DNA of 64,000 bases from assembly GCA_965261345.1 (NCBI GenBank), contig OZ253449.1, positions 1,568,001 to 1,632,000 on the forward strand. Direction: 5' to 3'. The notes under the pieces were generated by a model. That model had not been told where the DNA came from and did not search any database. It saw only the letters and a list, made by a program, of their open reading frames with translations. The position numbers and the translations under genes are program-made. The DNA is from Chloroflexota bacterium. Lineage in GTDB: Bacteria; Chloroflexota; UBA11872; VXNJ01. Positions 17,325 to 37,978 of this stretch are shown in pieces. Within the stretch, counting starts at the first letter, position 1. Each line of letters begins with the position of its first letter.

Positions 17325-17796
17325 CCGCATCAGTCGGCGCGCTAGCTACAGATCTGACGTTAGTCTGCCACCGCAGGGCTCAACATTCCAGACCCGAGAT
17401 GTTGCTGATTCGATTGGGGCGTTACCGCTCATCAATTTGCGTCGAAGCCGACCAGATTACCGGAATCTGCACTTGGAGGGATCAATGGAGCCCGGTATGA
17501 CGCTGCGGCGGCTGTTCCGGTTCGTTCCCTGCGAGATGGGTTTCGGGATCGGGGCTAATTGGCTCAAGAACGCCTTCTGCGCCAATCCAATGCGATCTGT
17601 CGTCATCAGCATGTGGACGGCCACTGAGATCTGCCCGGACACGGACATCGGATGTGGCCGCCCTTGGCCGCCGTTGGGAAATTTTCATGGCCACTGGCCG
17701 GCTCCCCCTCATTGGTACCAGCGGGAATGTGAATAATCTGGTTCCAACGAAAGGGGACTGCAATGGCGAAGCGAAAGTACTCGCCCGAACAGATCA

Positions 17797-19723
17797 GAAC
17801 AGCCAGTCCAACTGGTACCAGGACAAGGAGTGAAAGTCTCCCGTGATGAAGGGCGAGAGCCAGCCCACATCAGCCCGCGAGCCGTGCGCGGGTAACCGCG
17901 AGGTTACCCGTGAAGCGTCGGTAGCGGGGCATGCGAGCCGGGCTATCGAGCGCCGAAATACCGGTTCGGAGCGCCGAGACCGTGATTCTGGTCGAAGGCA
18001 ACACCGACAGCGGCGATATTGGCAAGTCGCTGATCTGGGCTCCGCGGCGTCGAAGAACTCGCGCACGTATGCACGTCCATCCCCGGGACCTGGGAGACCT
18101 GTCCAGCGCCCCAACGCACTCGCAGCATTGGGGCCGCATCGGGAAGGAAGGAGTTTCGCAATCCGATGATGCACGATGTGCAGAAGTCTGATGCGGCCAT
18201 AGTACCTGCGAAGGCGGCGAACAATGGGGCGTAAAACCCCGGCGGAGCCGCCGGAGGAAAGGGCCGCAAGCAAGAGGAACGCGCCAGGCACCGGCACGGA
18301 CTACACCCAGGGGTGGGTTCCCGTGTCACCCGGAGCCGAACGCGTACGGCAACACGCCAAAGAGAACCCAGAGGGAAAACTCACCGCGCTCTTACACCAC
18401 ATAGACCTTGACGCGCTAAGGGATGCGTTCTACGGGCTAAAACCCAATGCCGCTCCCGGCGCCGACGGGATCACGTGGAGGATGTACGAGGAAAACCTGG
18501 AAGAGAAACTTCTCGACCTTAAAGACCGCGTGCACAAAGGAGCATACCGAGCGACCCCCGTCCTGCGGGTAGCGATACCCAAACCGGACGGCGGGAAGCG
18601 AGCGCTTGGAATCGCATCCATAGAGGACAAGATCCTGCAGCGGGCGGTGTGTCAACAGATCCTTGACCCGATCTATGAATCGGAGTTCGCCGGGTTCGCA
18701 TACGGGTTCCGGCCAAAAAGATCAGCGCACGACGCGCTGGACGCCCTGGCCTACGCCATCGAACGGAGAAAAGTCAACTGGATTCTTGACGCCGACATAA
18801 AAGGCTTCTTCGACCATCTCGACCGCGAGCGACTCATCTCGTTCCTGGGAGAGCGAATCGGAGACAACCGCGTCCTGCGCCTAATCCGCAAATGGCTGAG
18901 CACCGGAGTAATGGAAGCCGGAGAACTATCCGACAGCGTGCAGGGAACACCGCAAGGGGCGCCGATATCGCCGCTGCTTGCCAACGTGTACCTGCACAAA
19001 GTCCTGGACTCATGGTTTGCCAAGGAATGGCGACCCAAAAGCGCCAGCGGCGAGGTCTACATCGTCAGGTATGCCGATGACTTCGTCCTGGGATTTGAGT
19101 ACCGCAGCGATGCGGTCAGATTTGCAAAGGATTTGCGAGACAGGCTAGAAGAGTACGGATTAGAGCTTGCAGCCCACAAGACCCGCCTGATCGAGTTCGG
19201 CCGATACGCGATCGAGAATCGCCGCCAGCGTAACGACAGCCGTCCGGAGACTTTTGACTTCCTCGGCCTAACGCATTACTGCCGGACGATGAGCAACGGA
19301 AAGTTCGGACTGGGACGCAAGCCCATCGCCAAGCGCGTCAGACGCACCCTGAAGGCGATCAAAGAGAAGCTGCGTATGCGCATGCACGACGATCCCGCGC
19401 AGACCGGGCAATGGCTCGGGATGGTGCTGAACGGATGGCTCAACTATTACGCCGTCCCCACCAGTTATCCGTCCCTTTGTCGATTCCGCCAACGGCTGCA
19501 ATGGCATTGGAAACGCACCCTGCAGCGTCGCTCGGACAAAGATCGCACCACCTGGGAGCGCATCAGCCAGCTTTGCGACCAACTCTGGCCGCCCGTCCAA
19601 ATCCGCCACCCATGGCCCGCCCAGCGCTTTGCCGTTAGATACTCAAGCTAGGAGCCCGGTGCGTTAACGCGCACGCCGGGATCTGTACGGGGGGCATCGG
19701 GCAACCGGTGTTCCTACCGTGAA
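17797..19723 (+). ncRNA. Group II intron (IIB, bacterial class E/D-like) with non-canonical termini
   Basis: Boundaries from the intron-free IS3 copy (CAGATCA|TCAACAAG); DIII stem TGCGGCC 18192-18198 / GGCCGCA 18262-18268; DV GAGCCCGGTGCGTTAACGCGCACGCCGGGATC; DVI with bulged A19716. Confidence 0.9.
18323..19651 (+). CDS. ltrA: Group II intron reverse transcriptase/maturase without endonuclease domain
   Basis: APGADG, IPKPDGGKRALGI, YGFRP, DADIKGFFD, GTPQG, YADD, FDFLG, GWLNYY, C-terminal HPWP; ORF open from 18224, GTG 18323 is the likelier start. Confidence 0.93.
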   Translation: MSPGAERVRQHAKENPEGKLTALLHHIDLDALRDAFYGLKPNAAPGADGITWRMYEENLEEKLLDLKDRVHKGAYRATPVLRVAIPKPDGGKRALGIASIEDKILQRAVCQQILDPIYESEFAGFAYGFRPKRSAHDALDALAYAIERRKVNWILDADIKGFFDHLDRERLISFLGERIGDNRVLRLIRKWLSTGVMEAGELSDSVQGTPQGAPISPLLANVYLHKVLDSWFAKEWRPKSASGEVYIVRYADDFVLGFEYRSDAVRFAKDLRDRLEEYGLELAAHKTRLIEFGRYAIENRRQRNDSRPETFDFLGLTHYCRTMSNGKFGLGRKPIAKRVRRTLKAIKEKLRMRMHDDPAQTGQWLGMVLNGWLNYYAVPTSYPSLCRFRQRLQWHWKRTLQRRSDKDRTTWERISQLCDQLWPPVQIRHPWPAQRFAVRYSS

Positions 19724-21356
19724 TCAACAAGCTCCGGGCGATAGAGCTGGGCATCGCCCAGGGCGACACCGTCGAGCAGAGCTGCCGCAAGGCGGCGATC
19801 AACGTCCAGACCTATTACCGCTGGCGCTCCCGCTACGGCGGAATGACGATCGCCGAGGCCAAGGAAGCCAAGCGCCTGCGCGAGGAGAACACGCGCTTAA
19901 AGAAGGTGGTGGCCGACCAGGCCCTGGACATCCAGATCCTTCAATGAGAGGCCTTAAGGAAACTTCTAAGCCCGGAGCGGCGGCGCAAGTGCGTCGATCA
20001 CATCCGGGCGATCTTCAAGGTCTCCGAACGCAGGGCCTGCCGGGTGCTGGGCCAGCCCCGCCGCACCCAGCGCTACATCCCAAAACCCGATCCGGAAGAG
20101 GACAACCTCACCGCCGAGATCAGGATGCTTTCCCTCAAACACCCCCGCTATGGCTACAAGCGCATCACCGCCCTGCTTAAACACTCGGGCTGGAAACTGA
20201 ACCGCAAACGGGTATTGCGCATCTGGCGCGCGCAGGGCCTTAAGGTCCCGATCCGAAAGGTCAAGAAGTCGCGCCTCTGGCTGGAGAACGGACGCTCTAC
20301 GCGGCTTATGGCCGAGCGCCCGAATCACGTCTGGGCCTACGACTTTACTTAACCAGCGCACCGAGGACGGCAGACCGCTGCGGATCCTGACCGTGGTCGA
20401 TGAGTTCACCCGCGTGGCCTTAGCGGCCCGGGCGGCCCGATCCTTCCCTGCCGGGGACGTGATCGAGGTCATCGCGGATCTCATGCTCATCCACGGGGTC
20501 CCCGAGCACATCCGCTCTGACAACGGCCCCGAATTTACTGCCAAAGCGATAAGGCAATGGCTATCGGCAAACCAGGTCAAGACCGTCTACATCAAGCCCG
20601 GAGCACCATGGGAGAACGCCTATGCCGAATCCTTCATCTCCAGGGTGAGGGACGAACTCCTGGAGCGCGAGATCTTCTACACCCTCGAGGAGGCCAGGGT
20701 GATGCTGGAGCGCTTCCGGATCGACTACAACAGCGTGCGTCCGCACAGTGCGCTCGGCTACCTATCGCCCCTGGAAGCGATCGCGGCGGCGGCGTGATGG
20801 AGTACCTGCAAGTTGCAATCCGGCTGCTGCCGGCCGGCCTCATCGACGGCCTGGGGTCCGCCTTCGTGGGCGCTGCGGGCGCCTGCAAAATCAACCTCGC
20901 CGCCAACTCTCCTGCAGGAGAGTTGGCGGCACCCTCCCACAAGACAATGTCTCAAACCACCTGGTACCAAAACCGGGGACCTGCCAGCCACCAGCAGGCA
21001 GTTCCCGATGACCGTCCACAATCAGCATGGAAATTTCGGATGGTGCGGAGCGACGAATCAGATTCGAAGTCCGAATCCGATTACCGCTATTCGAGCGCAA
21101 TTCGAAGTTCCCCAGTTGAGGGACGTCGCGTCGCGCTGACCAGACCCAAACCCGGCAAGACTCATCCGTTTTTTGATACAAATCTTGGCGAAAGGCCACT
21201 ACATCGAGCGCCCGAGTCCGTCTGAGGAATCGCCGGTGGATGTGAAAGTTAGATCCGCCAACGGCGCAACAGCGTAAATTTCTCGAAGGTCGCTGCGACT
21301 GAATCAACACGCGTTCAAAATACTGTAAATGTATGAACTAGCCACAGTATTTCCAA

Positions 21357-32763: not shown

Positions 32764-33042
32764 ATGGCGAAGCGAAAGTACTCGCCCGAACAGATCATCA
32801 ACAAGCTCCGGGCCATAGAGCTGGGCGTCGCCCAGGGCGACACCGTCGAGCAGAGCTGCCGCAAGGCGGCGATCAACGTCCAGACGTATTACCGCTGGCG
32901 CTCCCGCTACGGCGGGATGACGCTCGCCGAGGCCAAGGAGAACAAGCGCCTGCGCGAGGAGAACAAGCGCTTAAAACACGCGGTGGCCGATCTAACGCTC
33001 GACAACCAGATCCTGAAAGAGACGGCCTCGGGAAACTTCTAA
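32764..33042 (+). CDS. IS3 transposase OrfA
   Basis: KYSPEQII...TYYRWR..YGG HTH and leucine zipper. Confidence 0.92.
   Translation: MAKRKYSPEQIINKLRAIELGVAQGDTVEQSCRKAAINVQTYYRWRSRYGGMTLAEAKENKRLREENKRLKHAVADLTLDNQILKETASGNF

Positions 33043-37903: not shown

Positions 37904-37978
<75 letters not shown>

What the first reader, a model, noticed from the sequence alone, without database searches (positions are those of the whole stretch)
17797..19723. Group II intron with non-canonical ends (GAACAG...GAA) and a compensatory gamma-gamma' pair
The intron-free IS3 copy at ~32790 gives the exon junction CAGATCA|TCAACAAG. The intron therefore starts GAACAG instead of GUGYG and ends AA instead of AY. 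The J2/3 linker before DIII reads UGA (18189-18191) rather than RGA, so gamma (U) can still pair with the terminal A. This covariation argues for an evolved variant, not decay. DV, the DVI bulged A (19716, 8th from the end) and the YADD RT ORF are intact. The altered 5' end would disturb the normal epsilon/lambda contacts, so splicing or insertion may work differently (inference). A 7-nt complement of the 5' exon (TGATCTG, 18031-18037) exists, but I cannot place it at the canonical EBS1.
Basis: partly seen in the sequence, partly recalled or inferred. Interest (0 to 1): 0.75.

Follow-up and report, generated by a model that had tools for sequence, protein, structure and literature searches.

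The report
Mobile group II intron, non-canonical ends
A family of self-splicing, self-copying introns in one bacterial genus has swapped the near-universal intron start signal for a different one yet still appears to spread, so it is a natural test of how much that signal is needed.

Summary
Window 17797-19723 (+) is a complete group II intron inside an IS3 transposase gene. It starts GAACAG and ends GAA. J2/3 reads UGA, so gamma U18189 can pair with the last base A19723.

These ends are a lineage trait, not a local mutation. All 15 copies examined in four genomes of one Chloroflexota genus start GA(A/U)C(A/G)G. Of 13 copies with a 3' end examined, 12 end GAA. Seven exact empty IS3 sites fix the boundaries. 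In 13 of 15 copies an EBS1 loop, with 8 different words, pairs for 6 or more bp with the exon bases directly upstream. Two copies are about 100% identical at different sites, and RT dN/dS is 0.16-0.32. So the lineage is or recently was mobile.

The sister clade (RT about 50% identical, mostly Acidobacteriota) starts GUGCG and mostly ends AC with gamma G. The terminal-A/gamma-U pair also arose separately inside that canonical clade, so it is ordinary covariation.

The real departure is at the 5' end: G3 is replaced by A, and the single strand has one extra base. No compensating change was found at the candidate epsilon' site. Splicing was not observed, because no RNA data were available. Verdict: a new variant of a known kind, of moderate interest.

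The parts
17785..17790 (+). IBS2 (ccgaac) in the IS3 5' exon
   Evidence: It is complementary to GUUCGG at 17964-17969. Read by eye, not tested.
17792..17796 (+). IBS1 (gauca), the last bases of the 5' exon
   Evidence: Five contiguous pairs with UGAUU at 17983-17987, anchored at exon position -1.
17797..17802 (+). 5' terminal motif GAACAG in place of GUGYG
   Evidence: Empty sites. The same start occurs in 15 of 15 copies: 12 GAACAG, 2 GAACGG and 1 GAUCGG.
17803..17815 (+). Local hairpin CCAGU-CCA-ACUGG directly after the 5' motif, closed by G17802 and U17816
   Evidence: The stem covaries across relatives: CCGG/CCGG, CCGA/UCGG, GACC/GGUC, GCCC/GGGC.
17797..18079 (+). Domain I. The closing stem pairs GGAC 17821-17824 with GUCC 18075-18078.
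   Evidence: RF02005 at 164 bits. The stem covaries: AUGGAC/GUCCAU in L003, CAUUGGAC/GUCCAAUG in L007, CAUGUUGU/ACAACAUG in the sisters.
17913..17916 (+). AAGC, candidate lambda'/epsilon' (inferred by position and conservation)
   Evidence: GAAGCGU is invariant in the in-group and the sisters, and AAGCGU in the far relatives. No C-to-U change is seen here.
17964..17969 (+). EBS2 (GUUCGG)
   Evidence: It lies in the internal loop upstream of the EBS1 hairpin. Other copies carry AAGAA, which matches uucuu in their own exons.
17982..17989 (+). EBS1 loop GUGAUUCU of the hairpin GACC...GGUC (17978-17993)
   Evidence: 13 of 15 copies have 6 or more bp anchored at exon -1, with 8 different EBS1 words. 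This copy pairs for only 5 bp, one base out of the usual register.
18052..18052 (+). Candidate EBS3 (the R in GUCRAAGA)
   Evidence: A goes with IBS3 U in L002 and L009. G goes with IBS3 C in L003, L004, L007, L008, L012 and L092. L001 has G.U. L005 and L006 are exceptions and have foreign 3' flanks.
18080..18188 (+). Domain II
   Evidence: The basal helix pairs at 8 of 11 positions here, against 9-10 of 11 in L002-L005 and L007-L009. The loop motif CUCGCA is in-group specific.
18189..18191 (+). J2/3 UGA, with gamma = U18189
   Evidence: the motif is GUC-NGA followed by the DIII stem. N covaries with the last intron base across 27 copies.
18192..18268 (+). Domain III (UGCGGCC...GGCCGCA)
   Evidence: The AUAGUACC and GAACAA motifs are conserved.
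18224..19651 (+). IEP ORF (RT/maturase with no endonuclease domain detected), lying in DIV. The true start codon is uncertain because the listed ATG lies inside DIII.
19652..19683 (+). Domain V. The AGC triad is at 19653-19655. G19654 faces A19681 instead of U.
   Evidence: alignment. The G.A is shared with the sister clade.
19687..19720 (+). Domain VI with bulged branch candidate A19716
19721..19723 (+). 3' tail GAA. The penultimate A19722 is retained. gamma' = A19723.
19724..19724 (+). IBS3 (t), the first base of the 3' exon
32784..32811 (+). Empty homing site in a second IS3 copy, junction at 32797|32798

Best explanation
This is a functional or recently functional retromobile group II intron. 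It has an IIB-type ribozyme with EBS1, EBS2 and EBS3, and an RT/maturase without an endonuclease domain. It is most likely related to bacterial class F.

It belongs to a lineage confined, as far as searched, to one Chloroflexota genus. In that lineage the 5' consensus GUGYG has been replaced by GAAC(A/G)G, and the 3' AY by AA.

Shown: the boundaries, the conservation of both ends in all copies, the site-specific EBS-IBS matches, the gamma-gamma' U-A pair, and the intact DV, DVI branch A and RT.

Inferred: splicing still follows the normal two-step branching route. G1 and the penultimate A are both kept. The 5' exon is held by EBS1 and EBS2, and the 3' site by gamma-gamma' and EBS3. The epsilon contact is weakened, with C4 still able to pair but A3 facing an unchanged C. 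The shortfall is presumably made up by the maturase or by the extra 5' hairpin.
For: Boundaries: there are 7 exact empty IS3 sites and 2 with 3 mismatches, plus 2 empty IS110-type sites with 2 mismatches for L007.

Copies: the genome has 9 full-length copies at 72-100% identity. Six of the 9 have an ORF of 475 aa or more with YADD. L003 and L004 are about 100% identical at different sites.

Ends: 15 of 15 in-group copies in 4 genomes lack G3, with 14 A and 1 U. In contrast, 26 of 26 out-group loci with a readable 5' end have GCG at positions 3-5. Of the 13 in-group copies with a 3' end examined, 12 end GAA.

EBS1: 13 of 15 copies have 6 or more bp anchored at exon position -1, with 8 different words.

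gamma-gamma': 25 of 27 copies form a Watson-Crick pair, comprising 14 U-A, 9 G-C and 2 A-U. One has a U.G wobble and one a U/U mismatch.

Phylogeny: in the RT tree the in-group (10 rows) is one clade with SH-aLRT 100. It is sister to the GUGCG clade plus L026, again with support 100.

Selection: dN/dS is 0.16-0.32 for the 5 in-group pairs with dS of 0.5 or more.

Protein: the IEP reaches the TIGR04416 equivalog cut-off.
Against: No RNA evidence exists. Neither splicing nor a lariat was observed, and no RNA run holds the sequence.

DV-DVI scores below Rfam's gathering threshold, 31.9 against 40 bits.

No compensating change was found for A3. Position 3 is the only fixed substitution at an unpaired, universally conserved column of DI-DIII. 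The other four fixed substitutions lie in helices (read by eye), and there is a 5-nt in-group insertion in the DII loop. Disrupting epsilon-epsilon' strongly reduces splicing in model introns (PMC8637638, passages read).

Three of the 9 copies have broken ORFs.

The window's own copy is a mosaic. Its EBS1 pairs for only 5 bp and out of the usual register, so this particular copy may splice poorly.

The class F assignment was not tested against named reference introns.
Confidence: 0.78

Rival explanations
1. The altered 5' end has changed the chemistry. The intron uses a 5'-terminal insertion or shifted-site arrangement, like that of some mitochondrial rRNA introns and C.te.I1. It would then splice mainly by hydrolysis, or through an altered first step, rather than by normal branching.
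For: Judged by pairing partner, the in-group has one more base in the 5' single strand than its sisters: GAACR+G against GUGC+G. The candidate epsilon' is not compensated. Lineages with extra 5' bases and altered splicing are on record (PMC4424553 and PMC4024640, passages read). One class F intron, Ge.ur.I1-1, formed a circular rather than a lariat intron in vitro (PMC3753933, passages read).
Against: The bulged A, the long DVI, G1 and the penultimate A are all kept. EBS2 is kept as well, whereas those other lineages lost both EBS2 and the branch motif. No remnant GUGYG lies downstream of the start. Precise full-length insertions at many sites fit complete reverse splicing by a lariat, although that is inference.
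Confidence: 0.12
2. The copies are decaying relics. The odd ends are neutral damage inherited from a single dead founder and multiplied at the DNA level together with their IS hosts.
For: Several copies sit in IS3 or IS110-type elements that are themselves repeated. Three of 9 ORFs are broken. The G010 copy is frameshifted and has further end changes, GAUCGG...GAG. The copies are recombinant mosaics.
Against: EBS1 differs between copies and matches each copy's own exon. The insertion sites include non-IS sites and the RT ORF of another intron copy. Seven intron-free copies of the same IS3 site exist. RT dN/dS is 0.16-0.32. The ends stay constant while the rest of the intron has diverged to 72% identity.
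Confidence: 0.06
3. The boundaries are wrong or the region is misassembled, and the true intron has canonical ends.
For: None was found. The only ambiguity is a one-base slide caused by the repeated A.
Against: The same ends occur in 9 copies on a single-contig genome and in 3 other genomes. Exact empty sites exist. EBS1 is anchored at exon position -1.
Confidence: 0.02

Closest known systems
Sister clade found here: GUGCG...AC introns of Acidobacteriota and other MAGs (L014-L025, L042). They are probably of the So.us.I2 type, bacterial class F.
   Same: They share the domain layout and the hairpin directly after the 5' motif. They also share the AAGCGU, GAAGGCAACA and GUCGAAGA motifs and the DV G.A pair. 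The DVI sequence CCUACCGCGA is the same. Lengths are about 1.9 kb, and the RT is 50-53% identical.
   Different: The sisters start GUGCG and mostly end AC with gamma G. The in-group starts GAACRG and ends AA with gamma U. It also carries an extra DII loop motif, CUCGCA.
Bacterial class F / IIF group II introns (Ge.ur.I1, Pe.th.I2, So.us.I2; Simon 2008 as cited in PMC3552965; Nagy 2013, PMC3753933)
   Same: The IEP is an RT/maturase without a D/En region, the RNA is IIB-like, and the D6 stem is long and structured (passages read; here).
   Different: Published members are described with a GUGYG 5' site and an AC 3' site. Membership was not tested here against reference sequences.
Introns with shifted 5' splice sites (C.te.I1; fungal mitochondrial rRNA IIB1 introns)
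   Same: In both cases the 5' junction is not directly followed by GUGYG (PMC4424553 and PMC4024640, passages read).
   Different: Those introns keep a GUGYG 1-33 nt downstream. They lost EBS2, the branch A and the RT, and they are not retromobile. Here the motif itself is replaced, and the RT, EBS2 and branch A are all kept.

Membership tests
Group II intron (ribozyme plus IEP retroelement) | Domain I fold with exon-binding sites | tested here: met
   RF02005 at 164 bits against a gathering score of 49. EBS1 covaries with the 5' exon in 13 of 15 copies.
Group II intron (ribozyme plus IEP retroelement) | Domain V with the AGC triad and a 2-nt bulge; domain VI with a bulged A | tested here: met
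   The alignment shows these features at 19650-19723. The score of 31.9 bits is below the gathering score of 40, partly because of a G.A pair in the triad helix and a non-GNRA loop.
Group II intron (ribozyme plus IEP retroelement) | RT/maturase ORF in domain IV | tested here: met
   TIGR04416 at 342.7 bits against a cut-off of 300. RVT_1 at E 2.4e-36. YADD is present.
Group II intron (ribozyme plus IEP retroelement) | Consensus ends 5' GUGYG ... AY 3'. These are characteristic of 'the vast majority' (PMC4424553) but are not strictly defining. | tested here: not met
   The ends are GAACAG...AA here, and the same holds for all in-group copies.
Group II intron (ribozyme plus IEP retroelement) | gamma-gamma' Watson-Crick pair between J2/3 and the last intron base | tested here: met
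   U18189 pairs with A19723. Across the copies compared, 25 of 27 form a Watson-Crick pair.
Group II intron (ribozyme plus IEP retroelement) | 2-bp epsilon-epsilon' pairing of the GC near the 5' end with its complement in DI | tested here: inconclusive
   Positions 3-4 read AC, and the candidate epsilon' GC (17915-17916) is unchanged. The identity of epsilon' is inferred, not shown.
IIB-type RNA / bacterial class F | EBS2 is present, and the 3' exon is recognised by a single EBS3-IBS3 pair | tested here: inconclusive
   EBS2 words match the exons. The candidate EBS3 R tracks IBS3 Y in 8 of 11 distinct copies. L001 has a G.U pair, and the two exceptions have rearranged flanks.
IIB-type RNA / bacterial class F | IEP lacks the D/En domain | tested here: met
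   Only RVT_1 was found in Pfam, with no HNH or endonuclease hit. The protein is 475 aa.
IIB-type RNA / bacterial class F | RT groups with named class F members in a phylogeny | not tested
   No reference sequences of named introns were at hand. The link rests only on the host taxa of the sister clade (Solibacteraceae, Bryobacteraceae) and on passages in PMC3552965.

The most novel reading that the evidence does not exclude
A retromobile group II intron lineage has rewired how its 5' end is docked in the active site. It does without the canonical G3-C epsilon pair and without U2. It may use the extra 5' base, the adjacent hairpin or the maturase instead. This would show that GUGYG is not mechanistically required for branching and reverse splicing in vivo.
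Probability: 0.3. Interest if true: 0.7.

Novelty: new variant of a known kind. Interest (0 to 1): 0.5.

Why it matters
The 5' GUGYG motif and its epsilon and lambda contacts are treated as essential for placing the 5' splice site (PMC7641739 and PMC8637638, passages read). They are also used as parallels to the spliceosomal GU and the U6 contacts (PMC4424553).

A lineage that is still spreading with GAACRG is a natural set of mutants. Its close GUGCG sisters would serve as controls. It could show which of these contacts can be dispensed with, and what replaces them.

There is also a practical point. Boundary-finding tools based on the consensus ends may miss such introns. The terminal AA with gamma U is simply a textbook covariation.

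Tried and rejected
- RNA evidence: no RNA holder was listed for window:17600-19900.
None matched the intron 5' HMM, so all were chance hits and the scan says nothing about distribution.
- Phylum sample: BLAST of the 5' 434 nt against a 401-genome sample of the phylum gave hits in 8 genomes. Only the 4 genomes of genus g1 had near-full-length hits. The other 4 were short, weak matches that I did not use.
- Partner for the new 5' bases: UGUUC in DVI of L001-L006 is complementary to GAACA. It does not covary in L007 or L008, so I rejected it. This was read by eye.
- TGATCTG at 18031-18037 was rejected as EBS1.
- Literature: searches found no report of a bacterial group II intron lineage with such ends. 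The library holds only CC-licensed PMC papers and bioRxiv. Simon et al. 2008 and the Zimmerly intron database were not seen. Supplementary tables of PMC3552965, which list intron boundaries, could not be read and may bear on the novelty claim.
- The L026/L027 5' boundary (AUGCG or GAUGCG) could not be resolved, because both copies share the same 5' flank.

Full report
**What is there.** Window 17797-19723 (+) is a 1927-nt insertion in the first codons of an IS3-family orfA. A second IS3 copy in the window reads straight through the site...gaacagatca|tcaacaag..., with the junction at 32797|32798. The genome has 7 exact copies of the 28-nt empty junction and 2 more with 3 mismatches.

The insertion has the parts of a group II intron:
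- Domain I: RF02005 at 17833-18059, 164 bits against a gathering score of 49.
- DV-DVI: RF00029 at 19650-19723, 31.9 bits, below the gathering score of 40.
- ORF: 475 aa with YADD. It reaches the TIGR04416 group II RT/maturase cut-off, 342.7 against 300 bits. In Pfam it shows only RVT_1, with no endonuclease domain.

The intron starts GAACAG and ends GAA. The bulged A19716 is the 8th base from the end. UGA at 18189-18191 precedes the DIII stem.

**The ends are a lineage trait.** The genome, a single 2.39-Mb contig, holds 9 full-length copies at 72-100% identity. It also holds a 120-nt 5' fragment. All copies start GAAC(A/G)G and end CCGYGAA.

Copies in three other genomes of the same Chloroflexota genus have the same ends. 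In total 15 copies were examined: 12 start GAACAG, 2 GAACGG and 1 GAUCGG. Of 13 with a 3' end examined, 12 end GAA. The exception is a frameshifted copy in G010 that ends GAG.

In a 401-genome sample of the phylum, near-full-length matches to the ribozyme's 5' part were found only in this genus, in 4 of its 5 genomes counting the window's own. This means not found in the genomes searched. It does not mean absent.

**The splice sites are where the DNA boundaries are.** The hairpin GAGACC[loop]GGUCGAAGGCAAC carries EBS1. In 13 of 15 copies the loop pairs for 6 or more contiguous bp, G.U allowed, with the exon bases that end exactly at position -1. Eight different EBS1 words match eight different exons, for example GUAAGC/gcuuac, UUAGGC/gccuaa and UAGAAUG/cauucua.

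An internal loop just upstream supplies EBS2: GUUCGG/ccgaac here, and AAGAA/uucuu in the IS110-site copies. A purine in GUCRAAGA tracks the first 3' exon base and is a candidate EBS3. This is an IIB-type recognition scheme.

**The lineage is or recently was active.**
- L003 and L004 are about 100% identical at two different sites.
- Six of the 9 copies keep a full ORF.
- RT dN/dS is 0.16-0.32 between the 5 pairs with dS of 0.5 or more.
- One copy in G098 sits inside the RT ORF of another copy, with a matching EBS1.
- The ends stay fixed while the rest of the element has diverged to 72% identity.

**Relatives and direction of change.** The nearest out-group has an RT 50-53% identical and comes mostly from Acidobacteriota MAGs. 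It has the same architecture but starts GUGCG and mostly ends AC.

In the RT tree the GAACRG copies (10 rows) form one clade with SH-aLRT 100, on a long branch. That clade is sister to the GUGCG clade plus one Dehalococcoidia element, again with support 100.

All 26 out-group loci with a readable 5' end have GCG at positions 3-5. Position 2 varies among them (GUGCG, GAGCG, GCGCG, AUGCG). So A at position 2 is not unusual. The loss of G3 is.

By pairing partner, the G that closes the small hairpin after the motif is G5 in the out-group and G6 in the in-group. The in-group single strand is therefore one base longer, GAACR against GUGC.

**gamma-gamma'.** The base before GA in J2/3 covaries with the last intron base:

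| gamma - last base | Copies |
|---|---|
| U-A | 12 in-group copies, plus L014 and L025 |
| G-C | 9 sisters |
| A-U | L026 and L027 |
| U.G wobble | L092 |
| U/U mismatch | L020, whose 5' end could not be located |

That is 25 Watson-Crick pairs out of 27. L014 and L025 start GUGCG and are nested inside the sister clade. The U-A state therefore arose at least twice, independently of the 5' change. It is the expected behaviour of a Watson-Crick tertiary pair (PMC4424553, passage read).

**The 5' end.** Reviews describe a 2-bp epsilon-epsilon' pairing of the conserved GC near the 5' end with its complement in DI. They also describe a lambda contact tying this pairing to DV. Both are said to be needed to place the 5' end, and their disruption strongly reduces splicing (PMC8637638, PMC7641739 and PMC4424553, passages read).

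I compared 11 in-group sequences, 10 sisters and 7 more distant sequences over DI-DIII. Position 3 is the only fixed substitution at an unpaired, universally conserved column. The other four fixed substitutions lie in helices as I read them. There is also a 5-nt in-group insertion in the DII loop.

The conserved AAGCGU motif at 17913-17918 is my candidate for lambda'/epsilon', judged by position. It is unchanged. So C4 can still pair, and A3 faces an unchanged C. This step is inference, because epsilon' was not identified experimentally or by covariation. G1 and the penultimate A, which interact in the second step, are kept.

**Likely mechanism.** The most probable route is normal branching and reverse splicing with a weakened or re-made epsilon contact, helped by the maturase. 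A change of pathway cannot be excluded, for example towards hydrolysis or circle formation. The latter was seen in vitro for one class F intron (PMC3753933).

**The window's own copy.** L001 is a mosaic. The middle of its DI is of the L003 type and the rest is of the L002 type. Its EBS1 pairs for only 5 bp with the IS3 exon and out of the usual register. Its DII basal helix pairs at 8 of 11 positions, against 9-10 of 11 in L002-L005 and L007-L009. This copy may therefore be a poorer splicer than L003 or L004.

**Limits.**
- No RNA data were available.
- The class F assignment is not tested.
- Named reference introns, the Zimmerly database and paper supplements were not available.
- The literature searches cover only an open-access subset.

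**Verdict.** This is a real, lineage-wide, apparently mobile variant of a known kind of element. The 3' AA with gamma U is ordinary covariation. The replacement of GUGYG by GAACRG without visible compensation is the interesting part.

Noticed in passing
window 19654 and 19681; also L011-L025: In domain V the G of the AGC triad faces A instead of the usual U (GAGCC...GGAUC). This holds for the in-group and for the GUGCG sister clade. More distant relatives such as L047, L071 and L074 have GGUUC. It partly explains the sub-threshold RF00029 score.
   Followed up: partly
L013 (OZ244573.1) and L090 (G098): This is a nested intron (twintron). A GAACAG copy sits inside the RT coding region (...PETFDFLGL...) of another copy, and its EBS1 UUAGGC matches the exon gccuaa.
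   Followed up: partly
L005 (genome 873300-875232) and L006 (genome 113729-115657): These copies have an IS3 5' exon but unrelated 3' flanks. L006 shares caccga with the L003/L004 site. This points to recombination between intron copies that rearranged the genome. L006 also has a mismatched DII basal helix, pairing at 6 of 11 positions.
   Followed up: partly
genome 1299453-1299575 (+), outside the window: A 120-nt 5' fragment of an L008-type intron (GAACGG...) lies in an IS110-type site. It is cut off after GAAGCGU.
   Followed up: no
window about 18117-18124 (DII loop): The loop motif CUCGCA is conserved in 10 of 11 in-group sequences and absent from the sister clade. It could be a tertiary-contact or protein-binding site.
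   Followed up: no
L010 (genome 1304921-1305035, minus strand): This is the DV-DVI end of a second, different group II intron type, 72% identical over 118 nt. It too ends ...CCGCGAA.
   Followed up: no
window 37907-37978 (-): A tRNA gene (RF00005, 62.7 bits).
   Followed up: no
L092 (G010): A degenerate copy with a frameshifted RT. It starts GAUCGG and ends GAG, so gamma forms a U.G wobble. Its EBS1 UGAAAU still matches the exon auuuca.
   Followed up: partly
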